Assembly: GCA_903870275.1 (NCBI GenBank)
Contig: CAIQCK010000103.1
Coordinates: 3,819-67,818, forward strand
Origin: an uncultured bacterium
GTDB lineage: Bacteria; Verrucomicrobiota; Verrucomicrobiia; CAIQCK01
Length of the DNA: 64,000 bases
Direction of reading: 5' to 3'
Each line of letters starts with the position of its first letter. Within the stretch, counting starts at the first letter, position 1. Made by a program: the position numbers and the translations under genes. Below are positions 24,582 to 63,653 of this stretch, in pieces. The notes under the pieces are model-generated. The model saw nothing but the letters and a program-made list of their open reading frames with translations, was not told the DNA's origin and ran no database searches.

Positions 24582-25829
<1,248 letters not shown>

Positions 25830-25958
25830 GCGCCTTCCCGGGAGCGCGGGCATCCTGCCCCCCGACGTTCACGCGCAGGCGCAGCCAGTTAGAAGGCGGT
25901 TGATGGAACCGTCTCTGTTGCGACCACTTTTTTTATCCATACTTTATTCGAACGCAGC

Positions 25959-26792
25959 ATGCAATTTACCATCGTCACACCCAGCTTCAGGAATTCTTCC
26001 TGGCTTAAGCTGTGCATCGCCTCGGTGGCCGACCAGGGTGTGGAGGCGGAACACATCGTCCAGGACTCCTGCTCCGATGACGGCACGCAGGACTGGCTGC
26101 CGCACGACTCCCGCGTCATCTCCGTCATCGAAAAGGACACGGGCATGTATGACGCGGTCAACCGCGGATTCCGCCGCGCACGGGGGGAATTGCTGGCCTA
26201 TCTCAACTGCGACGAACAATACCTTCCCGACGCTTTGCGCAAGGTAAGCCGTTTCTTTGACCAGCATCCCGGCGTGGACGTGATTTTCGGCGACACCGTG
26301 ATCGTCGGCCCCCAGGGCGAATACATCTGCGAGCGCCGCGCGCTCCTGCCCCATCGCCTCCATACCCTCATCAGCATGAACCTGAGTTTCCTCACGGCCG
26401 CCACCTTCATGCGGCGGCGGGTTTTTCATGAACTCGGACTCCACTTCGATCCAAGCCTGCGTGACGTGGGCGACGCCGAATGGACACTCCGTTTGCTCAA
26501 GGCTGGAGTGCGCATGGCGACGATGAAAGAATTGACCAGCGCGTATACGGAGACAGGAACCAACATGAGCCTCGGCCCGAATATGGCTCGCGAACGGGCT
26601 GTCTTCGCCCAAACCGCCCCGCTGTGGGCGCGCACACTGGCCCCGTTCCTCGTGGCCTATTTCCGGTCCCGCCGATGGCGCGCGGGGCATTACCGCTGCC
26701 AACCGCATTCGTATGTCATCTACACCAAGGACGGCCCCAACGAGCGAAAGCTCTTCCAAGCGAACCAGCCGACCTTCCGATGGTCGCGGTGA
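25959..26792 (+). CDS. family 2 glycosyltransferase
   Basis: FTIVTPSFRNSSWL...DSCSDDGT...YLNCDEQYLPD (DxD-like) typical GT2 GT-A fold; 277 aa. Confidence 0.8.
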   Translation: MQFTIVTPSFRNSSWLKLCIASVADQGVEAEHIVQDSCSDDGTQDWLPHDSRVISVIEKDTGMYDAVNRGFRRARGELLAYLNCDEQYLPDALRKVSRFFDQHPGVDVIFGDTVIVGPQGEYICERRALLPHRLHTLISMNLSFLTAATFMRRRVFHELGLHFDPSLRDVGDAEWTLRLLKAGVRMATMKELTSAYTETGTNMSLGPNMARERAVFAQTAPLWARTLAPFLVAYFRSRRWRAGHYRCQPHSYVIYTKDGPNERKLFQANQPTFRWSR

Positions 26793-26843
26793 CCCGTCAG
26801 AAATCACGACGAAGCACGCAACCCTTGATATGACCGCCCTTCT

Positions 26844-26888
26844 TCGCTGTAGCGGCGGTCTCCAACCACCGAGCTGTTCATTATCAAC
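26844..26888. repeat. short repeat (half copy of hairpin element CTGTAGCGGCGGTCTCC...TTCAT(T/C)ATCAAC)
   Basis: Matches 27058-27105 (left arm plus loop of the hairpin element below). A third copy of the core CTGTAGCGGCGGTC is at 9465-9478. Confidence 0.5.
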
Positions 26889-27000
26889 CTCAACTACACG
26901 CCCAACACCGCGCGCGAGTCGAAAGTGGACGCCATCCTCAACAACGCCCCCGGCTTTGGCGGCCACAACTGTTCCCTCGTCGCCAAGCGGTTCGTGTAGG
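26888..27000 (+). pseudogene. diverged duplicate of the fabF 3' end (last about 37 codons plus stop)
   Basis: About 95% identical (6 mismatches over about 112 bp) to 25718-25829. Retains frame and a TAG stop ([36 protein letters not shown]) but has no 5' part. Confidence 0.6.
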
Positions 27001-27057
27001 CAGACGCCTGTAGCCGCCGACGTAAGGAGGCGGTCATGTTCGCATCCTCGATCTTTC

Positions 27058-27130
27058 CGCTGTAGCGGCGGTCTCCGACCGCCGAAATGTTCATCATCAA
27101 CAACCGGCGGTCAGAGACCGCCGCTACAGC
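27058..27130. repeat. palindromic hairpin element (17-bp perfect stem GCTGTAGCGGCGGTCTC / GAGACCGCCGCTACAGC, extendable to about 27 bp)
   Basis: Arms at 27059-27075 and 27114-27130. Preceded by a REP-like arm CTGTAGCCGCCGACGTAAGGAGGCGG (27008-27033) shared with the mutS leader element. Confidence 0.5.
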
Positions 27131-27199: not shown

Positions 27200-29605
27200 A
27201 TGAAGAAGTGGCTGAAGATTCTGTCTGTGGTATTGCTCGGGGCTCTAATGGCAACGGGCGCGTTCTTCGTCGCCAAACCGGCAAGGATGCCGGTGTTCCA
27301 ATCAACTTCTGTTTTCCGGCATTATCACACTTTGTGCGTGCCTTACCGCCGACCACCGGCGCTTGATGCGGCCGAAGCAACCCCCATATTGGAACACGCC
27401 ATCCAGCGAATCCGCCAGCGCCTCTTTAAAGCCCGCAATCGTTTGCCGGCACTGTCGGAAATAGACAAAGCAACAATCAAGGGATGTGACTTCACATATC
27501 GGAAAGGAGACGTCTCCCGCGATGAGACAGGCAAGCGGGTTTTTGATCCGCCGGATTCCTGCTACTTGTCCCTGCATGCCGAATATCCGTTCTGGGAATC
27601 AATGATGCTGTCAGTTGTTCCAAAGGAGTATTCAGTGTATGGGGATTGTTTTGCTGTCTACGCATCGGTAACTACGGAAACCGGTCAGTCCGAGATTTAC
27701 AAAATAATTCAGCAGGAAATGGACCGTGCAGTTGAAGAACTCCAAACGGCGGTCCGGTCCAAAATGCTCAAGGCAGGGGAAGGAATCTTTCTGGCCGTCA
27801 GAACCAGCGACGCCGCAAAGGTGGAGCAGTTCCTGGCCCGCAAACCCGAGTTGGCCAATGCCAAAGACACCCATGGGCTTGCGCCGCTTCATTGGGCACA
27901 AGACACGCGCGTTGCGGAGTTGTTGCTGGCGAAGAAAGCCGATGTTACCGCCAAAGACAACTTCGGTCTCACGCCCCTGCACTGGGCGGTCTATAATGGC
28001 CGCTTCGAACTCGTAAAACTGCTCGTCGCCAACAGGGCCGACATCAACGCCAAAACCACCGATGGCTGGACTCCCACGGACCTCGCCGAGGAACTGTACG
28101 GTGAAGCCGGGAAAGCAACGTCTTTTCTTCTCCAGCACGGCGGAATTCCTGGCCTGCCCGACGCAAGATTGATGGTAGTTCTTAGATGGCTCGACAAAAC
28201 GCACTTGAAGCGAGCGCTGCAAATGAAACCTAATTTCGTTGCCCTGAAGGACGAACAGGGGCGCACCGCACTGCATCACGCAGTTTTATCTCGCAACAGA
28301 GAAGCGGTGGAACTGCTTTTGAACGCCGGCGCGGATCCCAACATCAAGGACAATTATGGAAACACGGCAATATTGACGCCAAATGTCATGGTTGATCCAA
28401 AACTGCTGGAACTGCTGCTGACTCACAAGGCCGACCTCAACGTCATGGACGAGAAAGGCCGGACGCCTCTCGACCGTGCACTACTGGATCATGCATCAGA
28501 AATCGTCGCTCTTCTTCGCAAATACGGCGCCCAGAGAGGAGTAGAACCCCTTCGCAATACCATAATGCAACAAGACATGGGCGAACTGAAAGTATTGCTG
28601 TCATCCCAAACGGTTGACGTCAATAAGAAGGACCGTTATGGCAGTTATCCCGTTCATCTTGCGGTGTTTTACAAAAACATCGAAATGCTGAAGCTGTTGC
28701 TGGATCACAACGCTGATCCCAATGTCAGGGACAAAGAAGGTTATACATTGTTCCAAGTGTTCCTCGGATCCAAAGAAATGATGGCTTTGCTGATCGCCCA
28801 CGGAGCCGATGTTAACGCCAGAGACGGGTGGGGTGCCACGGCGCTTCATCATGCAGTCGGACTTATCAACAACAAGGAAGCCGTAGAGTTCCTCATTGCC
28901 AACAAGGCCGACGTCAACGCTGAAGACAAGAATGGCTGCACACCTTTGGATCGCGCATTTCGGCACAGCTCTAACCCGCATCACAGAATTGTGATTGATC
29001 TTCTTCGAGAGCACGGTGGCATATTCAAGAAATACCAGAAAGAAGCCAGCATCATGGAGTCACACCTCAAGAGACGGCAGTACATAATGGCTGGGATGCC
29101 TCTCTTTCCATACGGTTTAACAAACATAATTATTCGCCCGTTGCCGATAGTCCGCAAAAAAACATCGCTTACTCCTATTCAGGATATGGAGTTGCGGAAC
29201 ATGCCGGATGTGAAGGCCGCCAGCGAAGCACTGTCGGAAACTGGCAAAAAGTCTGCCAACGTGAGAAGAGCGACAATGTCCAAACTGGGATATCACATTG
29301 AGTCTCGCACTAATGGCACGTCGAATGTCGGGACAAGCGTATTCCGTGGGTGGTTTACTGCCGATGGGGAGCGGGTGACGACCAAGCAATTGACGGAATT
29401 CGACGATTTGCCGGACGTGAAGGCCAGTCGTGAAGCCACTGCACAAGCTGGCATGCTATACTGGGCAGTGAGGAGAGCAGCAACGACCACGCTTGTTAAT
29501 CAGACAGGTTATGGCACCAATCGCGCATCATCGGCGATTCAAGCACCGCCGGCGGGATCGGGCACGAATGGAGCGGTGCAGGTGAAGGGGAATGTGATGC
29601 GATGA
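27200..29605 (+). CDS. ankyrin-repeat protein with N-terminal signal peptide/TM and unknown N- and C-terminal domains (low-GC gene)
   Basis: 801 aa. About 10 or more ankyrin repeats (G.TPLHWA..NG....V.LLL..GAD.N). N-terminal hydrophobic segment (ILSVVLLGALMATGAFFVA). C-terminal region has an internal duplication (MPDVKAASEA / LPDVKASREA). GC visibly lower (about 50%). Confidence 0.85.
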   Translation: MKKWLKILSVVLLGALMATGAFFVAKPARMPVFQSTSVFRHYHTLCVPYRRPPALDAAEATPILEHAIQRIRQRLFKARNRLPALSEIDKATIKGCDFTYRKGDVSRDETGKRVFDPPDSCYLSLHAEYPFWESMMLSVVPKEYSVYGDCFAVYASVTTETGQSEIYKIIQQEMDRAVEELQTAVRSKMLKAGEGIFLAVRTSDAAKVEQFLARKPELANAKDTHGLAPLHWAQDTRVAELLLAKKADVTAKDNFGLTPLHWAVYNGRFELVKLLVANRADINAKTTDGWTPTDLAEELYGEAGKATSFLLQHGGIPGLPDARLMVVLRWLDKTHLKRALQMKPNFVALKDEQGRTALHHAVLSRNREAVELLLNAGADPNIKDNYGNTAILTPNVMVDPKLLELLLTHKADLNVMDEKGRTPLDRALLDHASEIVALLRKYGAQRGVEPLRNTIMQQDMGELKVLLSSQTVDVNKKDRYGSYPVHLAVFYKNIEMLKLLLDHNADPNVRDKEGYTLFQVFLGSKEMMALLIAHGADVNARDGWGATALHHAVGLINNKEAVEFLIANKADVNAEDKNGCTPLDRAFRHSSNPHHRIVIDLLREHGGIFKKYQKEASIMESHLKRRQYIMAGMPLFPYGLTNIIIRPLPIVRKKTSLTPIQDMELRNMPDVKAASEALSETGKKSANVRRATMSKLGYHIESRTNGTSNVGTSVFRGWFTADGERVTTKQLTEFDDLPDVKASREATAQAGMLYWAVRRAATTTLVNQTGYGTNRASSAIQAPPAGSGTNGAVQVKGNVMR

Positions 29606-29640
29606 GTGAAGAGTTTGGAAATTCCGGCAACTCTTCACTC
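29605..29640. terminator. bidirectional hairpin terminator (perfect 12-bp stem GAGTGAAGAGTT / AACTCTTCACTC, 12-nt loop)
   Basis: Immediately after the ankyrin gene stop; followed by T-rich TTCATTCTTAACTTTT. Sits between convergent genes (ankyrin +, GT4 -). Confidence 0.6.
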
Positions 29641-29654
29641 TTCATTCTTAACTT

Positions 29655-30734
29655 TTAACTCTTCACTTTCCTTCCCGCCAGCTCCTCGTAGAGATCCTCC
29701 AGCCGCCGGGCCATCCGGTCGAGGCTGAAGCTCTCCACCACGTGCGCGCGGGCGGCGTCGGCGAGACGTTGCGCCAGAGCCCGGTCGCGCAACAGCCGCG
29801 CCACGGCCTCCGCCAGCGCCCCCACGTCGCCCGATTGCACCACAAGGCCGTCGCGCTCGTGCGTGACGATCTCGCGCAGACCGTCCACGTTCGTCACGAC
29901 CACCGGCCGCGCCATCGCCATCGCCTCCAGCACGGCCAGCCCCAATCCCTCCCACAAGGCCGGCAGCACCACCACCGCCGCCCGTGCCAGCACCGGCTGC
30001 ACGTCCGGCACCGTGCCGAGGAAGTTGACGCGGCTGCCGATCCCAAGCTGCCCGGCGCGTGTTTGCAGTTCATCTCGCAGCATGCCGCCGCCGGCCAGTT
30101 CGAGCCGCAGGTCGGGAAACTCGCTCAACAACCGCCGCATGGCCTCCAGCAGGATGCGGTGGCCCTTCTGCTGGGTGAAGTTGGCCACGCAGACGACCGG
30201 CCCGGCCGCCGGCAGCGGTTGCGGCGCGAATTTTCCGCAATCCACGCCGTTGTGAATCACCTCCAGCCGGCGCGCGTGCCGATACTCCGCCGCCACCGCG
30301 CTCGACACCGCCACGACCGCGTCCACGCGCCGCTCCACCCAGCGCCCCACCGGCCGCAGCCGGCGGTCATGCCGGTCGTAATAGCGGACATTGTGCTTGG
30401 TGGAGACAATCGCCCGCGTCCACGCCAGCCGCCCCGCCGCATAACCCAGAATGTCCGCCTGGATCAGATGCGTGTGCAGGACCTCGATCCGCTCCCGCTT
30501 CAGCAACTGCGCCAGCCGCCACGCCGGCCAGGGGTCGAACTTCTGTGTCGAGCGCAGATGGTGAACGCGGATGCCGGCCCGCTCCAGTTCCGCCGCCAGC
30601 GGCGCGTCGCCGTGAAGATAAGCCACCTGCGGCTCGACCTTGGTGCGGTCAAGGCGTGGCAGCACCGTCGTCAACAGGCGCTCGGCGCCACCGACGTTCA
30701 GCTCGGTAATAAAATTCAAGACGCGGCAAGGCAT
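29655..30734 (-). CDS. family 4 glycosyltransferase (GT-B, glycosyl transferase group 1)
   Basis: N-terminal NFITELNVGGAERL and C-terminal E..G....EAMA.G.PVV.T..GG..E motif (GLGLAVLEAMAMARPVVVTNVDGLREIV). Start ATG 30732-30734. Confidence 0.85.
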   Translation of the reverse strand: MPCRVLNFITELNVGGAERLLTTVLPRLDRTKVEPQVAYLHGDAPLAAELERAGIRVHHLRSTQKFDPWPAWRLAQLLKRERIEVLHTHLIQADILGYAAGRLAWTRAIVSTKHNVRYYDRHDRRLRPVGRWVERRVDAVVAVSSAVAAEYRHARRLEVIHNGVDCGKFAPQPLPAAGPVVCVANFTQQKGHRILLEAMRRLLSEFPDLRLELAGGGMLRDELQTRAGQLGIGSRVNFLGTVPDVQPVLARAAVVVLPALWEGLGLAVLEAMAMARPVVVTNVDGLREIVTHERDGLVVQSGDVGALAEAVARLLRDRALAQRLADAARAHVVESFSLDRMARRLEDLYEELAGRKVKS

Positions 30735-31864
30735 TGGTTGATTTCCTGAATCACGCGGTCCACGTCGAGTTGCCGCATGCAGCGGTGTTGAAAGTCGCAA
30801 CGCATCGGCGGGACGGCGGCGCAGTGTTGCTCATTTTCGGCGGCGGAACAAGCCAACATTGTCCACACCACGCGCTCGTTGGGCCAGCGCGGCAGGAAGC
30901 GCGGGTTTGTCGGCCCGTAGATTGCCACCGTCGGCACGCCGAGGCTCGCAACAATGTGCGTCAGTCCCGTGTCGAGTCCGACATAAACGCGGCAGCCGCG
31001 CGCCAGCGCCGCCACCTGGCGCACCGTCAGGTTGACGATCTCCGCCGGGTCGGACGGTCCGCCGACGAGCGCCACGCGCAAACTGCGCGCCCGGAAATGT
31101 CCGGCGACGGCGCGAAAATTCTCCACCGGCCAGAGCTTCAGCGGAAACCCCGCGCCAACGTGCAGGAGGATGTCGTACGCCGGGGGCGCAGCCGTCCCGC
31201 CCGCCGAAAGGGTGAAGTATACCCCTCTCGTAGACGATACCGGATTTGCCCCCCACCCTTGTCCCAAGGGTGGAACGCCGACACTCCCGGCAATTTCATT
31301 CTCGAGATAAATCGCCGGCATCTGGCCGCCCGCGTCCGCGCCGGCCAGTGCCGCCACCGCGTTGTATTTTTCCACCAACGGAATTTGGGAAACCGGCCGC
31401 AGTTCGCGGTCGAACACAAAACCCAATCCCGACCGCGAAAATCCGACGCTCCAACGCGGCCGGGCCAGCGCCGCCAGCGCGCAACTCGCCGGCACGCCGG
31501 TGAAATCCACGAGCAAGTCGCAACCGCGCAGCCGTCGCGCCAGCGCGAACAGTCCGCGCCAATCCGTGCGCGGCTCGCGGGTCCGGTCGTTGCAAAGCCC
31601 GTCGAAGCAAATGATCTCGCGCAGATGCGGATTACCAAGCAGCGCTTCGCGGGCGCGCGATTTGACGACGGCGTCCATGACGGCGTTTGGAAAGCGGCGT
31701 TTGAGCACGGCGATGGCCGGCGTGGCCAAGAACACATCGCCGAGATAATGGAAATGCAGGATGCCAATGCGGCGGACGTTTTCCGGTGTCGGCGCGCGAC
31801 GACCGCGCCGCCGCCACAGCGCGGCGCCGGCGGCGTGAAAGAGACCGGCCAGCAAACGTTTCAT
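30716..31864 (-). CDS. family 9 glycosyltransferase (ADP-heptose:LPS heptosyltransferase-like)
   Basis: RIGILHFHYLGDVFLATPAIAVLKRRFP (GT9 N-terminal signature) and C-terminal VGLDTGLTHIVASLGVPTVAIYGPTNP. Start ATG 31862-31864; the upstream extension of the track ORF runs through the tRNA. Confidence 0.8.
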   Translation of the reverse strand: MKRLLAGLFHAAGAALWRRRGRRAPTPENVRRIGILHFHYLGDVFLATPAIAVLKRRFPNAVMDAVVKSRAREALLGNPHLREIICFDGLCNDRTREPRTDWRGLFALARRLRGCDLLVDFTGVPASCALAALARPRWSVGFSRSGLGFVFDRELRPVSQIPLVEKYNAVAALAGADAGGQMPAIYLENEIAGSVGVPPLGQGWGANPVSSTRGVYFTLSAGGTAAPPAYDILLHVGAGFPLKLWPVENFRAVAGHFRARSLRVALVGGPSDPAEIVNLTVRQVAALARGCRVYVGLDTGLTHIVASLGVPTVAIYGPTNPRFLPRWPNERVVWTMLACSAAENEQHCAAVPPMRCDFQHRCMRQLDVDRVIQEINQCLAAS

Positions 31865-31897
31865 GACGGCTGCAGACTTCACCGCTCGGATGGAAAA

Positions 31898-31972
31898 TGG
31901 TGGGCGCTGTTGGGATTGAACCAACGACCCCTTGCGTGTGAAGCAAGTGCTCTCCCACTGAGCTAAGCGCCC
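31898..31972 (-). tRNA. tRNA-Val (anticodon CAC), CCA encoded
   Basis: Reverse complement GGGCGCTTAGCTCAGTGGGAGAGCACTTGCTTCACACGCAAGGGGTCGTTGGTTCAATCCCAACAGCGCCCACCA folds as a cloverleaf. Acceptor GGGCGCT/AGCGCCC, D-arm GCTC-AGTGGGA-GAGC, anticodon stem CTTGC/GCAAG with loop TTCACAC, T-arm GTTGG-TTCAATC-CCAAC. Confidence 0.85.
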
Positions 31973-32105
31973 AACCGAGGGCCGAAATTTATAATGCAGC
32001 GCGGCGGCGGTTTCAACCGGTAATTTCAACAACGTTTGGAATGGGGGCACATCGCGCTTCACCGACCGCCCTGAAAAGGCGGCGGGCAGCTCATCGGTTT
32101 TCGAT

Positions 32106-33254
32106 TCAGACCGCCGGCAGCGTGAACCAGAACGTGCTGCCCTTGCCGACTTCGCTTTCCACACCGATCTGGCCGCCGTGCGCTTCGATGGCGAGTTTGC
32201 TGAACACCAGCCCCATGCCGACGGTGTATTGACGCAAGTTCTGTTCAACCACGCCGTATTTTTCGAAGATTTTCCCGCGAGATTCGGGGCGAATCCCCGA
32301 TCCCGTGTCGGTCACCGCCACGCGCGCCATGGCATGGTGCCGGCTCACGGTGACACGGATCCGGCCGTTGTCGGGAGACGCCTTGATGGCATTGCCAACC
32401 AGAGCGGCCAGCACCCGTTGAATGATCTCCTTGTCGGCGTTGGCCACGACCGGCTCCAGTTGCAATTCGACGCTCAGAAAACGCTCTTCCACCAGGGAGC
32501 CGATGGATTCCATGACCGCCTGCATCAAGACCGCGAGGTCGTAAGCCTGCCGGTTCAAAGGCAGTTCACCCGCCTCCAGGCGGCTGGCATCCACCAGCGA
32601 GGCAATCATGCCGACCAGCCTCTCCGTGTTCTGACGAATGCTGTCGAAATACCGCACCTCGGTGCTGGTGAGTTTTCCGGCGGTCTTCGCCTTGAGCAGG
32701 TCCAGATAACCCATCATCGCCGCGATCGGCGAGCGCAAATCGTGCGCGATCATATGAACCAGATTGTCGCGGAAGATTTCGAGGTCGCGGAGGTGAGTGT
32801 AGCTCATCTGCAGCTGCTGGTTTTGCTGCTCCAGATTTTCTTGATAGCAGCGGTTGGCTTCCGTCAGGCGCGCGCGCTCGTCTTCGGACGCCTTCAGCCT
32901 GACGGCGTTGCCCACGCAACGCAGGATCGTCTCCTTGGAAATCGGCTTGACGAGGTAGTCGAACGCGCCGGCCCGCACGGCGGCGGCGGCCGTTTCCACG
33001 GCGGGCTGGCCCGTGATCATGATGACCTGAATGCGCGGCGATTCTTTGTGAATGGCTTGCAGGAGTTCCACGCCCGTGATGCGGGGCATCACGATGTCGG
33101 ACACCACCACGTCATAGTTTTTGGACGGGAGCCGTTGCAGCACCGCGACGGTTGCATCCTCCGCTGTTTCCACTTCGTATCCCGCATCCCGCAGAAACTC
33201 TTGCAGCGTCAGGCGGATGCTTTTTTCGTCGTCCACAATCAATATGCGAGCCAT
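32106..33254 (-). CDS. hybrid response-regulator receiver / histidine kinase (REC-HisKA-HATPase)
   Basis: N-terminal REC (ILIVDDE...DVVVSDIVMP...LVKP), H-box MIAHDLRSPIAAM, C-terminal ATPase G-boxes (VTDTGSGI...GMGLVFSKLAIEAHGG). Confidence 0.85.
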   Translation of the reverse strand: MARILIVDDEKSIRLTLQEFLRDAGYEVETAEDATVAVLQRLPSKNYDVVVSDIVMPRITGVELLQAIHKESPRIQVIMITGQPAVETAAAAVRAGAFDYLVKPISKETILRCVGNAVRLKASEDERARLTEANRCYQENLEQQNQQLQMSYTHLRDLEIFRDNLVHMIAHDLRSPIAAMMGYLDLLKAKTAGKLTSTEVRYFDSIRQNTERLVGMIASLVDASRLEAGELPLNRQAYDLAVLMQAVMESIGSLVEERFLSVELQLEPVVANADKEIIQRVLAALVGNAIKASPDNGRIRVTVSRHHAMARVAVTDTGSGIRPESRGKIFEKYGVVEQNLRQYTVGMGLVFSKLAIEAHGGQIGVESEVGKGSTFWFTLPAV

Positions 33255-33266
33255 GCTTTCCTTTCG

Positions 33267-36200
33267 TTAGTCCTTGACGGGCAAATCCAGATGAAACCGC
33301 GTGTATAGCCCTGTTTGTGTCTCAAAGTGCAGTCCCCCTTGATGGTCTTTCGCGATGCCGTGGCTGATGGACAGTCCCAGACCCGTTCCTCCTTTTCCGA
33401 CCTTGGTGGTGAAGAAGGGGTCGAAAACACGGTCGCGGATTTCCCGAGGCACGCCGACCCCCTGGTCTTCAACGGTCAATCGAATCCAACGGCTTCCTTC
33501 CTTCTCCAGCGACCGGGCGGTGACGCGAATCGTCTTGTTTGCATCATGTTTCGGATACTTCTCGTTCAGCGCGTCGCGGGCGTTCGTCAGCAAGTTCAGA
33601 AACACCTGCTGGATTTGCTGGCTGTGGCACTTCACCTTGGGCAGGTCGGGAGGAACGTCCACGGTCAAGGCGATCTGGTCGTGCCGCATCACGGTCTGAA
33701 TGAGCCGGAGGACGGAGTTGACGATGTCGCTCATGTGCGTCCACTCGTGCTGCCGTTTGTCCTGCCGCGAAAAGGAGAGCAGGTTTTGGACGATCTGGGA
33801 CACGCGATCGGTTTCCTTGATGATCTCCGCCGCGTATTCCCGCAGGGGATTGTCCGCCGCCAGCCGGTCCACCATCAACTGCGCGTAGTTCATGATGCCG
33901 TTGATGGGATTGTTGATCTCGTGGGCGACGCCGCCCGCCAGCGTGCCGAGGGACTCCAGCTTTTGCGATTGGCGCAGTTGGGTTTCAAGCTCGGCTTCGC
34001 GCGTCACATCGAGCTTGAGGGCGATGTAGTTGACAATCCGGCCTGCTGCGTCCCGCACGGGGGAGATGGTGGCGTCCTCCTGGTAAAGCGTGCCATCCTT
34101 CTTTTTGTTGATCATGCGGCCATGCCAGACCTCGCCACGCGTGAGTGTCTCCCACATGTGCTGGTAGAACGCGGTGTCGTGTTTGCCGCTTTTGAGAACG
34201 CGCGGGTTCTGGCCAAGAGCCTCGTCGCGCGTGTAGCCGGTGATTTTCTCGAACGCCGGGTTGACATAGAGGATTGTGCCATGGGCATCGGTGATGACAA
34301 TGGTCTCGGCGGCTTGTTCCATGGCCGTGACCAGCCGCAGACGCTCCTCCTCCGCCCGCTTGCGCTCGGTGACGTCTTCCACAAATCCTTCGTAGAAAAG
34401 CACCCTGCCTTGCGAGCCCCGCGTGACGCGCGCGCTGGTGGAAACCCACATCGTGCTGCCGTCCTTGCGGTAGGCGCGGTTTTCAAATCCCCGCACTTCG
34501 CCCCGCTCTTCCAGTTGCCGTTGAAACTCCCGCCGGTATTCAGGGTGCAGGTAAAACTGGCGACCGATGTCCTGAACGGACGCCAGACACTCGGCGGGCG
34601 ACGCGTAGCCGTGCATGGCCGCGAACGCCGGGTTGACCGTGATCAACTTGCCGTCGGGCGTGCTCTGAAAAATGCCTTCCGCCGCGTTCTCAAAAATGCC
34701 GCGGTATTTCTCCTCCGCCTGGCGCAGTGCATCCTCCGTCCGCCGGCGTTCGGAAATGTCCCGGCTGACCCCCACGATGCCGACAAAGGCGTTCGTCTCG
34801 TCGAACATCCCGCTGTAGCCGACCTCGCACCATGCCGTCCAGCCATCCTTGCAGAGGTATTTGAGTTCGAGCGTTTCGCGCACGCGTTTGCCGGTCCGCA
34901 TCTGGGGGATCGTTTCGTCCAACTTCCCGCGAAGCGCCGTGGCGGAAGCCGCCACCAGCACTTGTTCCAAACCGCGCGACAGGACTTCCTCCGCCGTGTA
35001 GCCCAGCAACCGTTGAACCGAGGGACTCACGTAATTCAGCCGGCCCAACGTGTCCAGCGTCCAGATCACGTCGCTGGCGTTGTCGGCCAGCAACCGGAGG
35101 CGCTGTTCGTTCTCGCGCAACGTCTGTTCCATGAGCTTGCGCTCGCTGATGTCGCTCACCGTGCCCATCAGCCGGACCCGTTCGCCCTTTTCGTTGCGCC
35201 CGACGCGCCCCCGGACCGCAATCCAGCGCGGCGGCCGGCCCGGCCGGGCAATCCGGCACTCAAAACTGAGATGATCGGTGAACAGCGCCTGCGCAAAGCA
35301 ACGCTTGACCGGCTCAAGGTCTTCGGGCACGACATGCTTCAGGAGGATTTCGTAATTCCATTGGGATGGCGGGATGTCGTAGCCGAAAATTTGGTCGTGC
35401 CGCAACGTCCGCCAACTGGTGTCGCCGACCAAGTCCAACTCCCATGCACCCATCTGGCCTGCGTCCAGCGCGAGACGGAGCCGTTCCTCGCCTTGCTTCA
35501 ACTTCTCTTCAGCTTGTTTGCGCTCCGTCACGTCGTCGTAAACGGCCACCAACTCGCCCGACGGCAGCTTATAGACGTAATTTTCCCGCCACGAAACACT
35601 GCGACCCTGCTGGCGCAACGCACCGGAGTGCCGCTCGGGCACACCGGTTTTCCAAACGCGCCGGAACACGTCCAGCAACCCCATTTGCTGGACATTCGGA
35701 AACGTCTTGGCGATGCCTTTCCCAAGCAGTGCCTCCTTTTTCACGTTTTCGATCTGCTCGGCTGCCGTGTTAAAATCCTTGAAAATAAAATCCTCGCCGC
35801 TTCCCCGGACTTCGTAAACCGCGACGCCGCTTTTGATTCCGTTGAACAACTCCCGGTATCGTTTTTCGTTCTCGGCCAGTTGTTGCTCCGTTTGCGCGAG
35901 CTGCTTGCGATTCTGCGCCTCCTGCAAGGTCCGCCGCACGGCCGGCCCCAAACGGTTCAGCCTGTGCTTGAGCACGTAATCGGTCGCCCCTTGGTGCAGC
36001 GCGTCAATGGCGGTTTCCTCGCCAAGGTTGGCGGAAACGAAGATGAAGGGCACTTCGGGGCGTTTCTTTCGCGCAAGCTTCAGGGCGGACAGGCCGTCGT
36101 AGGACGGCAGGGAGTAATCGGCCAGAATCAGGTCCAGAGCCGGGTTCCGCAACCCGGCGGCAAAATCCGCCTCCGTCCAGACGCGCCGCACGCTGCACCG

Positions 36201-36356
36201 GATGCCTTCGCGCTTCAGTTCGCGCATCACCAGTTCGGCGTCGGCGGGGCGGTCTTCGAGGTTGAGTATCTGGAGTTCCTCGCTCACGGCTTGGCGGTGG
36301 GAAAGCGCACTCCGGATGGACGTTCCGGCGGCTGGTTCAACAACAGCCAGTAACAT
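33267..36356 (-). CDS. REC-(PAS)n-HisKA-HATPase sensor histidine kinase
   Basis: REC domain ([10 protein letters not shown]...LILADYSLP), about 5 PAS/PAC modules, H-box [13 protein letters not shown], HATPase (DQGVGVP...[10 protein letters not shown]). Possible GTG start at 36285-36287 overlapping the upstream gene stop (GTGA); ATG 36354-36356 is the alternative. Confidence 0.85.
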
Positions 36357-36760
36357 CCCAGTTGCGCGACAGCTTCGGAAAAGTTGTCGAAGTTCACGGG
36401 CTTGACGATGTAGCTGTTCACGCCCAACTCGTAACTGCGTACGATGTCCTGCTCCTCGCGAGAGGAAGTGAGCACCACCACCGGGATGGTCTTCACGGAG
36501 TTGTCGGACTTGAGCTTGCGCAAGACATCCAGACCGTCCACCTTGGGCAGCTTCAGGTCCAACAGGATGATCTTGGGCCGGTTGCGCACCCGGCTGTTTC
36601 CGCCGCGAGGACCAAAGATAAACTCCAGCGCCTCTTCGCCGTCCTTGACCCAGACTAGTTTGTTGGTCAGGTTGCGTTTCTTGAGCGAGCGCATGGCCAG
36701 TTCGGCGTCGCGCGGATTGTCTTCAACCAACAGGATTTGAACTTCGCTATTTGTGCTCAT
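36284..36760 (-). CDS. stand-alone response regulator receiver (CheY-like)
   Basis: [13 protein letters not shown]...[13 protein letters not shown]...NSYIVKP; start ATG 36758-36760 overlaps the stop of the upstream kinase (ATGA). Confidence 0.85.
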
Positions 36761-39700
36761 GGTCGTCCCTTTCTTACCGGCAGTGAGAAACAAAACATCG
36801 CGCCCTCGTTGAGAGTTGCCTCCGCCCGGACGCGGCCGCCGTGGCGGTGGATCACGCGCTGGACAATGGCCAGCCCGACACCCGTGCCCTCGAACTCAGC
36901 GTCGCCGTGCAACCGCTGGAACACGCCGAAGAGTTTGCCCACATATTTCATGTCGAAGCCGACGCCGTTGTCCTTCACGTAGTAGAGATGCTCCGAGCCT
37001 TCCGCACGGCCTCCGATCTCAATGATCGCCGTCTCCTTTGGACGGGTGTATTTGATGGCGTTGGAAATGAGGTTTACCCACACCTGGCGGAGCATAGCCC
37101 AGTCGCCCTCCGCCGGCGGCAGCGGATGAAGTTGGAACTGGATCTGCCGGCCCGTCGCCCGGGCCGCGCACTCGTCAAAGACCGCCTGAGCCAACCCGCC
37201 CATGTCAATCTCCACCGCATCCAAGGACTGGCGCCCCACCCGCGAAAACGCCAGCAGATCGTCAATCAACTGGCCCATGCGCTTGGTTTCGTCGCAGATG
37301 ATGTCCACGGTCCGCCGGCCTTCCTCGCCGAGTTGCTTGACATGGTCTTCCACCAGGATGTTCGCGAAGCCGTTGATGGCCCGCAGCGGCGCGCGCAAGT
37401 CGTGCGACACCGAGTAGGAAAACGCCTCGAGTTCCTTGTTGGCCGCCTCCAGTTGGGCAGTGCGCTGGATAACGCGCGTCTCCAGTTCGGCGTTGAGGGT
37501 GTTGATTTCCTCCTCCGTCCGCTTGCGCTCGGTGATGTCGCGACCCACAACCACCGATCCGACAATCGTACCGTCTTTGTCGCGAATAGGGGCGAAACTG
37601 TAGCTGCCCACCCACGTTTCGCCCGTGTCTTTGCGTCGCAGCACATGCTCCACATTGGTGGCCGTTTCGCCCCGGAGCGCTCTTGGAACCGCCCACTGAT
37701 CCGACGGCACCGGTTCGCCATTGGTCATGAATACGTCCAGAATCGCGTTGTAATCAGCCAGGATTCGACTGCATTGATCCTTGCTCTTGAACTTATGGAA
37801 CGTCGCGAAGGCGTCGTTGAACTCGATAAACCGCCCCTTGGAATCGGAAATAAACACGGCATCGGTCATGCTGGACATAGCTGCCTGCATTTTCGCCCGG
37901 CTCGCCAGCATCAGTTCCTCGGCCTGTTTGCGCGCGCTGATGTCACGCACAATGACTTGCGCGCCGGGCTTTCCCTCAAAGGTGAACGGCATGGCCCCCG
38001 CCTCCACGTCCACCACGCTGCCATCCAGTCGCAGAAACTGCTCTTCGATGATGGGAAGCGGCTCCGGGTTTCTTTCCATGGCCGCCATGCGCTCCAGAAC
38101 CTCCTGCCGGAACCTTGGGTGGATGAAATCCAAAATGAACTTGCCAAGCAGTTGTTCCGGCCGATCCGCGCCGAAAAGTTTCAGGCCGGCCGGATTGATG
38201 TAAACAAACTTCCGGTCCGAGGAGATGAAAATGGTGTCCGGAGACGACTCCACCAGCCGGCGGTAACGCTCCTCGCTTTCCCGCAGACTCTGTTGGCTCA
38301 GCCGATAGGCGATGGCTACCGCCAGATTGTCGGCCAGCCGCTCCAGCAACGCGACGCGTTCCGGCGTGAAACGCCCTTTGCGCTTGTCGTTGATTTGCAA
38401 CAGTCCGCAGGTGGTCTGGCTCGTGCGCAACGCCACGAGGGCTACCGATTCATAGCCTTCGCCATTGCAACGATTGCGCGTGCGGCCCTGGCGGTCGGCT
38501 TCCGTGGTGCCGGCCAGGAGTTCGGTGGTGGAATTGGTCCAAAAACTGCCGCGCGCGGTGAAGAACGGCTTCGTGCGGTTGAACCGTCCGCAGATCACGT
38601 TGCCGCACATGCAATCCAACACGGGATGGCCGTCGCTGTCCTGCAACGGCCGGCCCTCCGCGTCGTGCAGGCACAGTTTGTCTTCCGCGCGGACAAATTC
38701 CGCCGGAAACCCGCGTGTCTCAAAATACGGATAGTCGCCGTCCTCGCGCAGCCGGATGCCCACGGCATCGCAGTCGAGCCACTCCTTCAGCAACAGCGTC
38801 GAGTCCCGCAACAACTCGCGCAGGTTGCTGGCGGCGTTGAACACCCTGAGCAAATGCACCGTGATCTCGCGATCTCCTTCCAATCGCTTGCGTTCTGTGA
38901 TCACGTCGAACACGGCCACGAAGTGTTCCTTGGCGGGGCTATACACCGCGATTTCGAACCAGTCCTGCAGGCCCTCCACATAAACCTCGAACCGCTCCGG
39001 CACGCCGGTCGCCGCCACACGACCGTAGGTTTCAAGCAACTTTGGGTCGGCCTCGCGAATGCCGGGGATGATTTCGGTGATTTTCCGTCCGACGACATTC
39101 TTCAAGCCGGTTAGTTTTTCAAAAGCGTCGTTGACAGCCAGATAGACGAAGTCCTGCGGCCGGCCTTCCTCGTAAATCATCCGGCAATAGGCGAAACCGT
39201 TGAGCATGTTCTCGAACAAGAAGCGGTATTTCTCCGCGCTTTGCCGCGCCAGCTCCTGCGCCTCCTTGCGCTGGGTGATATCGCGGATGATGGCCAGCCC
39301 GCAGCGGACGCCGCCGACCTCCACAAACCGGTCGCTGCTCTCCACCGGGAACGTCGTGCCGTCCTTGCGCCGGTGGACGGTTTCAAACATGGCGGTGCTG
39401 TCGCGTTCCAGCCGCCAGACTTGTTGCGCGGCATCCTCGTGAGCCTCTGGCGCGCGCAAGTCAGTTAGCCGCATCCGCAGCAGTTCGGCCCGCGAATAAC
39501 CGTAGCTCTCCACGGCACGGTCGTTGGCTTCGAGGATCTTCCACTCCTTGTCGGTCAGCAGGATGATGTCGTTGGCGTTTTTCATCAGGTGCTCGATGCG
39601 CTGGGCCATCGCCACCCGCTCCTGCTCGACCCACAACTGGCGTCGCAACAAATTCACATCGTGCCGCCGCCAGAGCATCGCCACGCTGAGGCAGACGACG

Positions 39701-41385
39701 ACGGCCAGCAATCCCATCCCGCCCCAAACGGTTTGGGCCTGCCGCCGCAACTCGGCATAAATTTCGTCCCGATCCACCTTCGCGATCATGAACCAAGGCG
39801 TATCGGGAACGGCGCGGATGACGGCCAGCACCGGCACGCCGCGATAGTCCGCGCCCTCCACGCGGCCGGTCTCGCCCCGCGCCGCCATCGCCGCCGGCAA
39901 ATCTTTCTTGCCGATGGGCATTCGCAACGCGAGGGCAGTGTTTGTGCGATGGCGCAGTTCGCTCAGAAACAGCACGTCCCCGCCTTCGCGCCGCACCAGC
40001 AGCGTCTCTCCCGTCCGACTCGGCGTCGGCCACTCTCGCAACAGCGGATAGAGAAACCGCTCCGGGTCCACCTCCATGTCAATAGCGCCGATGGCTGGGC
40101 CGCCGTTCGCCGCGAGAATTGGCACCGCGAGGTCGAGATGGATATCTCCGTTGAACCGGCTGCGGTGCAGGTCGGACATGACAACCTCGCTCGAGCGCAT
40201 GGCTTGCTGCGCGTAGCTCACGCCGATGGGGCCAACACCGGTTCTCTCCGAGGGAGAAACCAGAAGCACCCGGCCCGTCGCGTCCGTCAGCGCCACGCAC
40301 AAAGCCTGGTTGTGTTCCCTCAAGGCGTCGAGCCATTGCGTCAGCCGTTCGGGCGAGATGCTGTTGGTCGAATCCTTGAGAAAGTGATTCATCGCCTCGA
40401 TCATGAAGGGATTCAGCAGCCAGGAGCGGGCGTCGCCGAGGCGTTCGGCGCGCCAGTCCACGATCTGCCGCACCTTCAAGTCCGCAATGGCGGTCACGTC
40501 GCCCATCGCGCTCTTGCGCGCCAGGGTGTCCAGATGATTGAGGAAGAAGAAACCGGCGGCCGCTGTCGCCGCGACAACAGACATCAATGCCGCTAGCAGC
40601 GTCAGGCCGAAACTCCGCCGTGACGGCAACGCTGACGCGGCCTGGCCGAACACCATTTGCAACGGCCATCGGTCCAGGCCCGCGGCAAACAAGAGGCCCG
40701 CGCCCAGCAACGTCAACGCAACGGCCGAGGCCGGCGCCATGGGAATCCAGTCGCTTTCGTGAAGGATGGACACGCCCATCGCGTAGCCGAGAATCGCCGA
40801 AAGGCCCAGCAACGTCACCATCAACGCGAATCCGGCGGCCAGTTGTCGAAGCTCCCGCCACCGGCCTATCGGCGGCAGTTGCGTCAGCAACGCCAGCGCC
40901 GCCACCAACAATCCCCCCGCGCTCATCACGGATATCCGACCCACCGGCACGCCGCCGACCTTGGCATGAACGTCCGCCAGCCAGCGTTCGAGGCTGGGGA
41001 TGGCGCCGCTCTCTTTCGTCAACGCCAGCAGACAGAACGCGACCACAGCCAACGCCGCCAGATAAGCCGCTGCTATCGGAACCCAACGCGACGGCCAGCG
41101 GTGGCGCAGGAACAACGCGCCGCTGAGCAGGACTGTCAAGCACGCCGTCAACGGCGCCATCGGCACATGCTCGTCGCCGAATGCGCCCCACTGCCAGCGG
41201 CCACTCCACCATGAGACCATCGCCAGCGCCGCGATGCCCGCCGCGCCAAACGCGCCCCACGCCACCGCGCGGCGCTGAATGATCTGCTGTTTGGAATCCG
41301 CGTTCACGCTCGTTGGCCGTAGTAGCAGTTCGTGGGCATCCCTGGACCGCGAGCGGTCTTCCACCAGGATATCATGGCAGTCCAC
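36757..41385 (-). CDS. giant membrane sensor histidine kinase (multi-TM N-terminus, periplasmic sensor, multiple PAS/GAF, HisKA, HATPase)
   Basis: 1542 aa. About 10 TM segments in the first about 330 aa. Repeated PAS-like modules, H-box [20 protein letters not shown], HATPase G-boxes (DNGVGFD...GTGVGLAIV). Confidence 0.85.
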
Positions 41386-53222: not shown

Positions 53223-53230
53223 GGGATGCC

Positions 53231-55657: not shown

Positions 55658-55719
55658 GGGTCACCTCGATACGAGCATCACCGCTGCGGTTATCAATGCG
55701 AGTCGGTTCATAAGTGCCT

Positions 55720-63609: not shown

Positions 63610-63653
63610 GTCACTGTCCTGACGTGGAAACAGGGGTTGGTTACAAAGTTTTT

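What the first reader, a model, noticed from the sequence alone, without database searches (positions are those of the whole stretch)
27200..29650. Low-GC single-gene island encoding an 801-aa ankyrin-repeat protein, bounded by repeats and a perfect 12-bp hairpin
GC drops to about 50% versus about 65% in flanks. The gene encodes a signal-peptide/TM protein with 10 or more eukaryote-like ankyrin repeats plus unknown N- and C-terminal domains (C-terminal internal duplication). Left boundary is the repeat/pseudo-fabF scar, right boundary a strong bidirectional terminator. Composition and boundaries suggest horizontal acquisition. Ankyrin proteins in bacteria are often host-interaction effectors or protein-protein interaction scaffolds.
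Basis: partly seen in the sequence, partly recalled or inferred. Interest (0 to 1): 0.55.

Follow-up and report, generated by a model that had tools for sequence, protein, structure and literature searches.

The report
Resident low-GC exported ankyrin-repeat gene
The 801-aa membrane-anchored ankyrin-repeat gene and its low GC content are real, but it is a fast-evolving gene that has long sat next to fabF in a small group of Verrucomicrobia, not a recently acquired island, and its biochemical role is still unknown.

Summary
The ORF at 27200-29605 (+), 801 aa, is real. It has one N-terminal hydrophobic anchor, an uncharacterised N-module, 13 ankyrin repeats and a duplicated C-module. Its GC is 52.7% (GC3 0.59), against 63% (GC3 0.80) for ordinary genes in the window; codon-usage z = -14.7.

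The "island" reading fails. The two closest relatives carry the gene at the same locus. P0001 (58% identity) has the same right flank (GT4-GT9-RR/HK-PAS kinases). L003 (49-50% identity) has the same left flank (ExbB-ExbD-ExbD-fabG-acpP-fabF, plus the same intergenic hairpin). The L003 orthologue is equally GC-poor.

The 115-nt pseudo-fabF repeat brackets a separate 1.17-kb glycosyltransferase insertion, not the ankyrin gene.

Polarised synonymous changes show no drift toward high GC. The implied equilibrium GC3 is about 0.4-0.58 for ank and about 0.9 for fabF (window lineage). The low GC is therefore a stable property of this gene.

The gene evolves about 8 times faster than fabF at non-synonymous sites but is under purifying selection (dN/dS 0.28).

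Distant homologues of the N-module are small lipoproteins. The C-module is shared with small membrane-anchored proteins.

Most likely it is an envelope-facing protein-binding scaffold, comparable to periplasmic RARP-1 or Bd3460. Interest is modest.

The parts
27200..29605 (+). Complete CDS of the 801-aa ankyrin-repeat protein. The ATG is preceded by AAGGAG 13 nt upstream; the stop codon TGA is at 29603-29605.
   Evidence: ORF list; sequence; six full-length homologues at 43-58% identity; family alignment supports this start.
27200..27280 (+). N-terminal signal-anchor: MKKWLK followed by a hydrophobic stretch of about 20 residues (residues 1-27). It is the only hydrophobic segment in the protein. 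Whether it is cleaved is undetermined.
   Evidence: Kyte-Doolittle scan; conserved across the family; predicted helix 2-23.
27335..27787 (+). N-module (residues 46-196), an uncharacterised exported domain. Predicted as long helix / 4-5-strand antiparallel sheet / long helix. Invariant C46, C121, PALS, YxKG and EMDRA motifs.
   Evidence: Alignments A1, A2, A4. pLDDT 80-90 in the full-length model. An exhaustive HMMER search finds it in small lipobox-bearing proteins and fused to TPR or short ANK arrays. No Pfam or PDB sequence match.
27785..29035 (+). Ankyrin-repeat array (residues 196-612): 13 helix-pair repeats in three blocks. Copy number varies among family members.
   Evidence: Pfam; motif scan; AF2 secondary structure; repeat-sized indels in the family alignment; PDB hits to DARPins and ankyrin-1 fall only in this region.
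29147..29326 (+). C-module unit 1 (residues 650-709): LTxxQ..L..(M/L)PDVKAA...helix...LGY...TN.
   Evidence: hhalign of the two halves of alignment A3: 99.5%, E = 1.5e-22; helix-hairpin plus beta-hairpin in the model.
29354..29533 (+). C-module unit 2 (residues 719-778), a tandem duplicate of unit 1.
   Evidence: The motif is also found in small membrane-anchored proteins P0141-P0146.
29537..29602 (+). Conserved extreme C-terminal tail IQAPPAGSGTNGAVQVKG.... It is shared with the small proteins P0141-P0146 (for example ...IQVPPAGSGTNGAVKGK).
27059..27130 (+). 26-nt inverted repeat (about 25-bp hairpin) between the fabF 3' end and ank. It lies at the same place in L003, with one compensatory pair change. 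It is likely the fabF terminator/stabiliser or a 5'-UTR element of ank.
   Evidence: It occurs only at this locus in the window. No Rfam family matches.
29604..29640 (+). Perfect 12-bp stem with a 13-nt loop, overlapping the ank stop codon, followed by a T-rich (not pure T) tail on the + strand. Probable ank terminator/stabiliser. A shorter hairpin sits at the same position in L003.
   Evidence: Not called by the terminator scan.
25832..27001 (+). NOT part of the ank unit. This is a 1.17-kb insertion/duplication relative to L003. It carries the GT2 gene (25959-26792, normal GC3 of 0.78), a partial copy of the hairpin arm (26845-26888) and the second copy of the fabF 3' end (26887-27001). The first copy is at 25717-25831. 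There is a TCAAC microhomology at the right junction.

Best explanation
Identity and history. The gene encodes a lineage-specific, vertically maintained envelope protein of a narrow verrucomicrobial clade (related to subdivision 3 / Pedosphaera). It has sat immediately downstream of fabF since before the window and L003 lineages split; their FabF proteins are 91% identical.

Inferred mode of action. A basic N-terminus followed by a hydrophobic helix of about 20 residues inserts into the inner membrane with the N-terminus inside. This places the rest of the protein outside the cytoplasm. That part consists of an alpha/beta N-module that also exists as free lipoproteins, a 13-repeat ankyrin solenoid, and two copies of a helical C-module ending in a conserved tail. 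There the ankyrin groove and the terminal modules bind other envelope proteins. The protein thus acts as a tethered scaffold, adaptor or inhibitor, in the manner of periplasmic RARP-1 or Bd3460, and not as an injected effector.

Low GC. The low GC is not a mark of recent transfer. The gene's synonymous sites evolve toward an equilibrium GC3 of about 0.4-0.58, while the neighbouring fabF is held near 0.9 in the window lineage. The most likely cause is that this weakly constrained, probably weakly expressed gene escapes the selection or biased gene conversion that keeps GC-ending codons elsewhere, against AT-biased mutation (Hershberg and Petrov 2010, PMC2936535).

Shown: synteny, composition, the substitution pattern, purifying selection and the module relationships.
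Inferred: topology, binding function and the cause of the low GC.
For: Synteny:
- The P0001 contig has ank(+) followed by GT4, GT9, a 382-aa RR-HK, a PAS kinase, an RR and a second PAS kinase, exactly as in window 29655-41385.
- L003 has ExbB-ExbD-ExbD...fabG-acpP-fabF-ank, with the same intergenic hairpin and a conserved motif.

Composition is inherited:
- L003 ank has GC3 0.58 against 0.81-0.88 for all its neighbours. L001 and L087 ank have 0.66 against 0.70-0.85.

No amelioration:
- Polarised synonymous changes AT>GC versus GC>AT are 28-30 versus 31-34 in the window lineage and 13 versus 26-28 in the L003 lineage. Implied equilibrium GC3 is 0.39-0.58.
- The fabF control gives 0.87-0.94 in the window lineage and 0.66-0.77 in L003.

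The gene is functional but fast-evolving:
- ank has dN 0.39, dS 1.41, dN/dS 0.28. fabF has dN 0.05 and the other neighbours 0.04-0.15.

Export:
- There is a single N-terminal hydrophobic segment after MKKWLK.
- Two cysteines are invariant in the full-length family.
- The stand-alone homologues of the N-module nearly all carry lipobox signal peptides.
- C-module homologues are N-terminally membrane-anchored small proteins.

Not a known effector or defence family.

Precedents: RARP-1 is periplasmic and not secreted (bioRxiv 10.1101/2022.02.23.481736). Bd3460 is an ankyrin inhibitor of the predator's own peptidoglycan endopeptidases (PMC4686830).
Against: - Topology is predicted only from sequence logic; no signal-peptide predictor or experiment was available. 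Positive charges also follow the hydrophobic segment (K26, R29).
- No conserved partner gene accompanies the family across its three genomic contexts, so no binding target can be named.
- Only two relatives give locus information for the fabF context. For P0001 there is no DNA, and its left neighbour is unresolved because it lies at the contig end.
- The polarised-substitution test uses parsimony at high divergence (dS about 1.4) with somewhat GC-richer outgroups, which biases it toward GC>AT.
- In L003, fabF also shows some AT-ward drift.
- The most distant family member (L088) has GC3 0.78. The low GC is therefore clade-specific and not universal to the family, which also fits an old intra-phylum transfer.
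- Expression level is unknown.
Confidence: 0.6

Rival explanations
1. Ancient horizontal acquisition. The ancestor of the window/P0001/L003 clade received the gene from a lower-GC donor, possibly another verrucomicrobium carrying the family in a different context. The gene inserted downstream of fabF and has simply not ameliorated.
For: - The family is absent within 10 kb of fabF in 80 other genomes, including about 15 Verrucomicrobiota at 58-67% FabF identity.
- More distant members lie in two other contexts.
- Family GC3 ranges from 0.58 to 0.78.
- Codon usage is strongly atypical.
- A rough estimate of my own (inference, not a tool result): the flank dS of 0.27-0.7 would allow only partial amelioration since the split.
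Against: - No excess of AT>GC synonymous changes in either lineage. An ameliorating gene should show one.
- No mobility genes, tRNA or flanking direct repeats around ank. The direct repeat belongs to the GT2 insertion.
- Other repeat-protein genes in the same window show the same depressed GC3, which suggests a genome-internal process.
Confidence: 0.25
2. Secreted or surface-exposed "eukaryote-like" effector. The ankyrin array targets proteins of protist grazers or hosts, and rapid evolution reflects an arms race.
For: - The ankyrin repeats are close to consensus and are the dominant feature.
- dN is about 8 times that of fabF, and repeat copy number varies among members.
- Three independent assemblies of the identical strain all break inside this gene at about 29.11-29.14 kb, which could reflect population heterogeneity.
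- From my own knowledge: symbiont ankyrin proteins can modulate amoebal phagocytosis.
Against: - No T3SS, T4SS or T6SS genes, or other delivery genes, lie nearby.
- All effector-family models score far below their cut-offs.
- The long hydrophobic anchor and the lipoprotein-type relatives of the N-module point to retention in the envelope.
- dN/dS of 0.24-0.28 in every region gives no sign of positive selection at this resolution.
- RARP-1 shows that such proteins can be wrongly assumed to be secreted.
Confidence: 0.12
3. Recent single-gene genomic island, delimited by the pseudo-fabF scar and the hairpin.
For: Atypical GC and codon usage; repeats on the left and a hairpin on the right.
Against: - Same locus in relatives whose orthologues have diverged to 49-58% protein identity.
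- The orthologous junction in L003 lacks the scar but has ank.
- The scar flanks the GT2 gene.
- The strain is 100% identical across independent samples.
- No mobility genes.
Confidence: 0.03

Closest known systems
RARP-1 of Rickettsia parkeri, a periplasmic ankyrin-repeat protein (bioRxiv 10.1101/2022.02.23.481736)
   Same: An exported bacterial protein whose ankyrin repeats act in the bacterium's own periplasm and bind other envelope-accessing proteins. It was first assumed to be a host-directed effector.
   Different: No sequence relationship was tested beyond generic ankyrin repeats. My recollection, not checked in the paper here, is that RARP-1 has a cleavable Sec signal, a disordered region and few C-terminal repeats. 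The present protein has a long signal-anchor, 13 repeats and two unrelated structured terminal modules. Its host is an uncultured, probably free-living verrucomicrobium (habitat not verified).
Bd3460 of Bdellovibrio bacteriovorus, an ankyrin self-protection protein (PMC4686830)
   Same: An ankyrin fold used to bind and neutralise the bacterium's own peptidoglycan (cell-wall) endopeptidases. This is a concrete mechanism that an exported ankyrin scaffold could share.
   Different: From my own knowledge, Bd3460 is a small protein. It is encoded at the same genomic locus as one of its two targets, Bd3459; the other, Bd0816, is at a different locus (abstract). Here no conserved neighbouring target gene exists across the three contexts, and the protein is four or more times larger, with extra modules.
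Legionella Dot/Icm ankyrin effectors (AnkH, AnkY, AnkX etc.; NCBIfam equivalogs)
   Same: Multi-repeat, consensus-like ankyrin arrays in a bacterium. These models give the best NCBIfam hits.
   Different: Scores are at most 141 bits against cut-offs of 450-1400 bits, and only over the repeats. There is no T4SS context. The protein has an N-terminal membrane anchor, not a C-terminal translocation signal.
Classical genomic islands / foreign genes undergoing amelioration
   Same: GC about 10 points below the flanks, deviant codon usage, and confinement to a narrow clade.
   Different: Syntenic in diverged relatives, no mobility machinery or flanking repeats, and a substitution pattern that is stationary or AT-ward, not GC-ward.

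Membership tests
Ankyrin-repeat proteins (Pfam clan Ank) | Multiple 33-residue helix-turn-helix repeats scoring above the Pfam gathering thresholds | tested here: met
   Ank_2, Ank_4, Ank_5, Ank and Ank_3 score 102-169 bits against cut-offs of 21-27 bits. The model has 13 helix pairs.
Legionella-type Dot/Icm ankyrin effectors | Score above the NCBIfam equivalog cut-off, i.e. homology outside the repeats | tested here: not met
   The best is AnkH at 141 bits against a 600-bit cut-off. All matches lie within the repeats.
Legionella-type Dot/Icm ankyrin effectors | A type IV (or other) secretion system encoded in the genome or nearby | tested here: inconclusive
   None of the window genes I scanned against Pfam is a secretion-system component. 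Not every ORF was scanned, and the rest of the genome is unavailable.
Recently acquired genomic island | Atypical base composition and codon usage | tested here: met
   GC z = -4.2, GC3 z = -4.0, codon-usage z = -14.7.
Recently acquired genomic island | Presence/absence polymorphism among close relatives, or an empty site | tested here: not met
   The gene is present at the same locus in P0001 and L003. No empty fabF-GT4 site was found. No relatives closer than these, apart from 100%-identical fragments, were available.
Recently acquired genomic island | Flanking direct repeats, an integrase or a tRNA that delimit the element | tested here: not met
   The 115-nt direct repeat flanks the GT2 gene, not ank. 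The neighbouring genes are fabF, GT2, GT4 and GT9, with no integrase. No tRNA scan was run.
Recently acquired genomic island | Ongoing amelioration toward host composition | tested here: not met
   AT>GC changes do not exceed GC>AT in either lineage; implied equilibrium GC3 is 0.39-0.58. Caveat: parsimony at high divergence.
Exported (periplasmic or envelope) ankyrin proteins such as RARP-1 and Bd3460 | An N-terminal export signal placing the repeats outside the cytoplasm | tested here: inconclusive
   There is a single N-terminal hydrophobic helix after a Lys-rich N-terminus, and lipobox-bearing homologues of the adjoining module. No dedicated predictor or experiment was available.
Exported (periplasmic or envelope) ankyrin proteins such as RARP-1 and Bd3460 | A demonstrated envelope binding partner | not testable with these tools
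   No conserved neighbouring gene across the contexts.
CpxP/Spy LTXXQ periplasmic proteins (considered for the C-module) | A match to the Pfam LTXXQ / Spy-type models | tested here: not met
   No such hit even at E <= 10 for the C-module or for P0141-P0146.
Anti-phage defence systems (PADLOC) | A specific defence-protein model together with system partners nearby | tested here: not met
   Only ankyrin-containing models match (PDC-M72A and 'Ankyrin'), and their best stretches lie within the repeat region. The neighbours have no hits.

The most novel reading that the evidence does not exclude
The two terminal modules define new envelope-biology elements of PVC bacteria. The N-module would be a TULIP/BPI-like lipid-binding domain that otherwise occurs as free lipoproteins. 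The C-module with its invariant IQxPPxGSGTNG tail would be a docking or sorting signal shared with small membrane-anchored proteins encoded next to giant surface proteins. The 801-aa protein would then be an inner-membrane-tethered bridge that links membrane lipids or the outer membrane to a partner machine through a long ankyrin spacer. Its permanently low GC would reflect a gene-specific regime, for example silencing or regulation by AT-binding proteins, or exemption from biased gene conversion.
Probability: 0.08. Interest if true: 0.6.

Novelty: new variant of a known kind. Interest (0 to 1): 0.3.

Why it matters
First, it is a caution for island detection. A 10-point GC drop, deviant codon usage and nearby repeats looked like horizontal transfer. 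Comparative data instead show a long-resident, syntenic gene whose synonymous sites have their own low-GC equilibrium next to a gene held at GC3 of about 0.9. In this window the same depression affects other repeat-protein genes (WD40, HEAT/LRV, a giant kinase). Composition may therefore mark a class of weakly constrained accessory genes in these Verrucomicrobia, and not foreign DNA.

Second, it adds to the evidence that bacterial ankyrin proteins with export signals may work in the bacterium's own envelope, and it should not be assumed that they are host-directed effectors.

Third, it delineates two unannotated modules that recur in PVC-group exported proteins and could be defined as new domain families: an exported alpha/beta domain, and a duplicated helical unit with a conserved C-terminal tail.

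Tried and rejected
1. Legionella-type effector membership: NCBIfam scores are far below the cut-offs. Rejected.
2. Defence-system membership: PADLOC hits are only to ankyrin-containing models within the repeat region. Rejected.
3. CpxP/Spy LTXXQ relationship of the C-module: no Pfam hit even at E <= 10. Rejected.
4. Dispersed REP element: the 24-nt arm occurs only at this locus in the window, and has no exact match in the 89 loci fetched at that point. Not a dispersed repeat here.
5. Rfam: only a sub-threshold miRNA-family match to the hairpin (25 bits against 70).
6. PDB sequence searches with the N- and C-module profiles: nothing significant.
8. FabF scan of species-level genomes: the nearest are only 66-67% identical (Verrucomicrobia subdivision 3 / Pedosphaera MAGs). 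No close reference genome and no informative empty site were found.
9. Metagenome scan with the N-module: only 2 loci, both already represented by P0005 and P0006.
10. Search for other proteins carrying the C-terminal tail in the window and all loci: none beyond the ank family and P0141-P0146. A general sorting-tag role could not be shown.
11. Self-BLAST for the C-terminal duplication found nothing. The profile comparison was needed.
12. The first crude gene caller picked antisense shadow ORFs. This was corrected.
Full report
**1. What is in the sequence**

The window contains a single long ORF at 27200..29605 on the + strand, encoding 801 aa.

- Pfam places all significant matches in the ankyrin clan (E about 1e-50), within residues about 197-610.
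- PDB sequence matches are consensus-type ankyrin proteins such as DARPins and ankyrin-1, in the same region only.
- A Kyte-Doolittle scan finds one hydrophobic segment, residues about 4-27, after a Lys-rich N-terminus.
- An AlphaFold2 model built on the family alignment (mean pLDDT 71.7) shows four parts. These are an N-terminal helix; a confident (pLDDT 80-90) helix / 4-5-stranded sheet / helix module at residues about 55-191; 13 ankyrin helix pairs in three blocks; and a C-terminal region of two helical hairpins with small beta-hairpins.
It is clear once the two halves of the family alignment are compared: hhalign 99.5%, E = 1.5e-22, 60 columns.

**2. Composition**

The gene has GC 0.527 and GC3 0.59. 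The 27 ordinary genes of at least 140 aa in the window have GC 0.630 +/- 0.024 and GC3 0.80 +/- 0.05, so ank is about 4 SD low on both. A likelihood measure of synonymous codon choice against all other genes in the window gives z = -14.7. The compositional observation is therefore real and far beyond chance.

It is not unique in the window. The other strongly deviant genes are:

| Gene | Product | z | GC3 |
|---|---|---|---|
| 7139-8236 | lipoprotein-like LRV/HEAT-type repeat protein | -11.7 | 0.53 |
| 53231-55657 | WD40 protein | -8.9 | 0.65 |
| 50748-53222 | WD40 protein | -4.6 | 0.72 |
| 55720-57192 | HEAT-repeat protein | -3.0 | 0.73 |
| 57370-63951 | 2193-aa Ser/Thr kinase with FGE-sulfatase domain | -14.9 | 0.65 |

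 This grouping was made after seeing the data, so its P value is only indicative.

**3. Boundaries**

*Left side.* The 115-nt direct repeat is real: 25717-25831 and 26887-27001, 95% identical, 1170 nt apart. It consists of the last 115 nt of fabF. Aligning both copies with the uninterrupted fabF-to-ank junction of the relative L003 is decisive. Copy 2, a 26-nt inverted repeat and ank are colinear with L003. The stretch between the copies, which carries a family-2 glycosyltransferase gene of normal composition and a partial copy of the inverted-repeat arm, is extra in the window. Its right junction shows a TCAAC microhomology. The scar therefore documents a GT2-carrying insertion/duplication, not the arrival of ank.

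The inverted repeat (27059-27130) folds into a hairpin of about 25 bp. It is conserved in L003 with one compensatory pair change. It occurs nowhere else in the window and matches no Rfam family.

*Right side.* The perfect 12-bp stem exists (29604-29615 / 29629-29640, 13-nt loop) and overlaps the stop codon. It folds significantly better than shuffles (-23.5 kcal/mol, z = -4.35). However, it is A/T-rich, has only an imperfect T-rich tail on the + strand, and was not called by the terminator scan. L003 has a shorter hairpin at the same position. It is a plausible terminator or stabiliser for ank. "Strong bidirectional terminator" is not shown.

**4. Relatives and synteny**

Among 5.8 billion proteins, only six share the full architecture: P0001 to P0006, at 43-58% identity. 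Those that carry a source name are annotated as Verrucomicrobia MAGs. All other hits match the repeats only.

- **P0001 (58% identity).** The gene is followed by GT4, GT9, a 382-aa response-regulator/histidine kinase, a PAS kinase, a receiver and a second PAS kinase. This is the same order and orientation as window 29655-41385. Its left neighbour lies at the contig end and is unresolved.
- **P0003 / L003 (49-50% identity).** The gene is preceded by ExbB-ExbD-ExbD...fabG-acpP-fabF, as in the window. The right flank differs.
- **More distant members.** These lie in two other contexts: Rce1-like / about 1170-aa protein / ank / 207-aa protein / ilvD, and a pseudopilin-like gene plus a TPR gene upstream.

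A FabF-based scan of one genome per species returned nothing closer than 66-67% identity. The best hits are Verrucomicrobia subdivision 3 and Pedosphaera MAGs, which places the organism. None of the 80 loci contains the family within 10 kb.

Fragments 100% identical to window 29108-32096 occur in at least two other assemblies (L090, L091). A third contig (ERZ1426625, no DNA held) shows the same gene layout. All of these contigs end inside ank.

**5. Rates and direction of change**

Between the window and L003:

| Gene | aa identity | dN | dS | dN/dS |
|---|---|---|---|---|
| fabF | 90.6% | 0.05 | 0.27 | 0.18 |
| fabG | 89.9% | 0.06 | 0.44 | 0.13 |
| acpP | 92.9% | 0.04 | 0.49 | 0.09 |
| ExbB / ExbD | 78-83% | 0.10-0.15 | 0.58-1.17 | 0.13-0.18 |
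| ank | 50.5% | 0.39 | 1.41 | 0.28 |

The dN/dS of ank is similar in all three of its regions (0.24-0.28), and the C-module is the most divergent. The gene is therefore functional but evolves several-fold faster than its neighbours.

The L003 orthologue has GC3 0.58 among neighbours at 0.81-0.88. Context-B members have 0.66, and the most distant member 0.78.

I polarised third-position synonymous differences with context-B genes as outgroup:

| Lineage | AT>GC | GC>AT |
|---|---|---|
| window | 28-30 | 31-34 |
| L003 | 13 | 26-28 |

The implied equilibrium GC3 is 0.39-0.58. The same test on fabF gives 0.87-0.94 for the window lineage and 0.66-0.77 for L003.

Within the limits of parsimony at this divergence, ank is not ameliorating. 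It is stationary or still losing GC. This fits a gene that escapes whatever maintains GC-ending codons elsewhere against AT-biased mutation (PMC2936535). It contradicts the picture of a recent foreign gene drifting toward host composition.

**6. The terminal modules**

*N-module.* An exhaustive HMMER profile search of 1.84 billion representatives with the N-module found 22 proteins.

- P0121 and P0122 are short (about 200 aa) stand-alone versions from Verrucomicrobia.
- P0123 has the anchor, the N-module and 3-4 ankyrin repeats.
- P0136 has a signal peptide, TPR repeats and the N-module.
- A set of 150-176-aa proteins nearly all begin with lipoprotein signals, with lipoboxes such as LIGC, LAGC, FVGC, IVGC and IASC.
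- They share the motifs RIHxxL, (P)xLSxI, YxKG and (S/G)C...YP.
- None has a Pfam domain.

This makes the N-module an unannotated exported domain, and it is the strongest indirect evidence that the ankyrin protein faces the periplasm.

*C-module.* The C-module profile found small (174-215 aa) N-terminally anchored proteins, P0141 to P0146. They have the same helix motif (NQFQKxQELPDVKAAREA..EAQKKY..AM) and the same extreme C-terminal tail (IQVPPAGSGTNGAV.K). P0141 and P0144, whose contigs I examined, lie downstream of giant proteins of at least 1600-2100 aa. No other protein in the window or the fetched loci carries the tail.

**7. Interpretation**

The evidence supports a long-resident, lineage-specific gene for an inner-membrane-tethered, extracytoplasmic ankyrin scaffold.

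The nearest functional analogues are periplasmic ankyrin proteins. RARP-1 was once presumed to be secreted, was shown to be periplasmic, and binds other periplasm-accessing proteins. Bd3460 binds and inhibits the cell's own peptidoglycan endopeptidases. Membership in the effector families, defence systems and the genomic-island category was tested and not met.

What remains open:
- the actual topology;
- the binding partners;
- why the gene keeps a low GC (weak expression or selection, exemption from biased gene conversion, or an old intra-phylum transfer);
- whether the contig breaks inside the gene reflect population heterogeneity.

**8. Verdict**

- The island interpretation is not supported as a recent event, and its boundaries were mis-assigned.
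- The "effector" reading is unsupported but not excluded.
- The object is a new architectural variant of a known kind (exported bacterial ankyrin-repeat protein), with two unannotated modules.
- Interest is modest, at 0.3. It comes mainly from the example of stable, non-ameliorating low GC in a syntenic gene, and from two candidate new domain families.

Noticed in passing
window 25717-27001: A 1.17-kb insertion/duplication sits immediately after fabF. A GT2 glycosyltransferase gene (25959-26792, normal GC3 of 0.78) is bracketed by two copies of the last 115 nt of fabF (95% identical). A truncated copy of the intergenic hairpin arm is fused to copy 2 through a TCAAC microhomology. The segment is absent from the orthologous junction in L003.
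   Followed up: partly
window 27059-27130; L003 9941-10011: A 26-nt inverted repeat forms a hairpin of about 25 bp between fabF and ank. Each arm is itself palindromic (CGGCGGTC-nnn-GACCGCCG). It is conserved in L003 with a compensatory change, is unique within the window, and matches no Rfam family.
   Followed up: partly
window 7139-8236 (+): A second strongly GC-poor gene (GC 0.48, GC3 0.53, codon z = -11.7). It encodes a 365-aa protein with a lipoprotein-like signal (…FLTGC) and an LRV/HEAT-type repeat. It lies directly after mutS and overlaps its stop. It could be the same phenomenon as ank. Its relatives were not examined.
   Followed up: no
window 50748-63951 (-): A run of 'eukaryote-like' genes with depressed GC3 (0.65-0.73): two WD40 beta-propeller proteins, a HEAT-repeat protein, and a 2193-aa protein that combines a Ser/Thr kinase domain with an FGE-sulfatase domain. 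Together with ank and the LRV gene, these are all of the compositional outliers in the window.
   Followed up: partly
L090 and L091 (equal to window 29108-32096 and 29142-32019); ERZ1426625 contig: Independent metagenome assemblies contain DNA 100% identical to the window (L090, L091). A third contig, for which no DNA is held, has the same gene layout. All of these contigs terminate inside the ank gene within about 35 nt of each other. This hints at strain-level heterogeneity or a coverage problem in the repeat region.
   Followed up: no
L092 7001-7564; L093 6134-6781; L094 5802-6449: Small N-terminally anchored proteins (P0141-P0146, 174-215 aa; Q/P/S-rich linker) share the ank C-module helix motif and the tail IQVPPAGSGTNGAV.K. 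Those examined (P0141 in L092, P0144 in L093/L094) are encoded just downstream of giant proteins of at least 1600-2100 aa; in L093/L094 a CarboxypepD_reg-like protein lies in between.
   Followed up: partly
L003 10001-10051: The public gene call for P0003 (817 aa) starts 17 codons too early, inside the intergenic hairpin region. The conserved ATG at L003:10052 gives an 800-aa protein that aligns with the window's start.
   Followed up: yes
window 30716-32248 (-): The GT9 (heptosyltransferase-like) ORF is 510 aa when read from the first possible start. The same gene on contigs 100% identical to the window is called at 433-469 aa (partly cut by contig ends) and at 448 aa on the ERZ1426625 contig; the P0001 orthologue is 381 aa. 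The mechanical ORF is probably over-extended at its 5' end and overlaps the end of the GT4 gene.
   Followed up: no
window 43866-50591 (+): A 2241-aa protein whose only Pfam match is a PATR (passenger-associated transport) repeat. It has normal GC3 (0.81), so not all giant or repeat-containing genes in this window are GC-poor.
   Followed up: no
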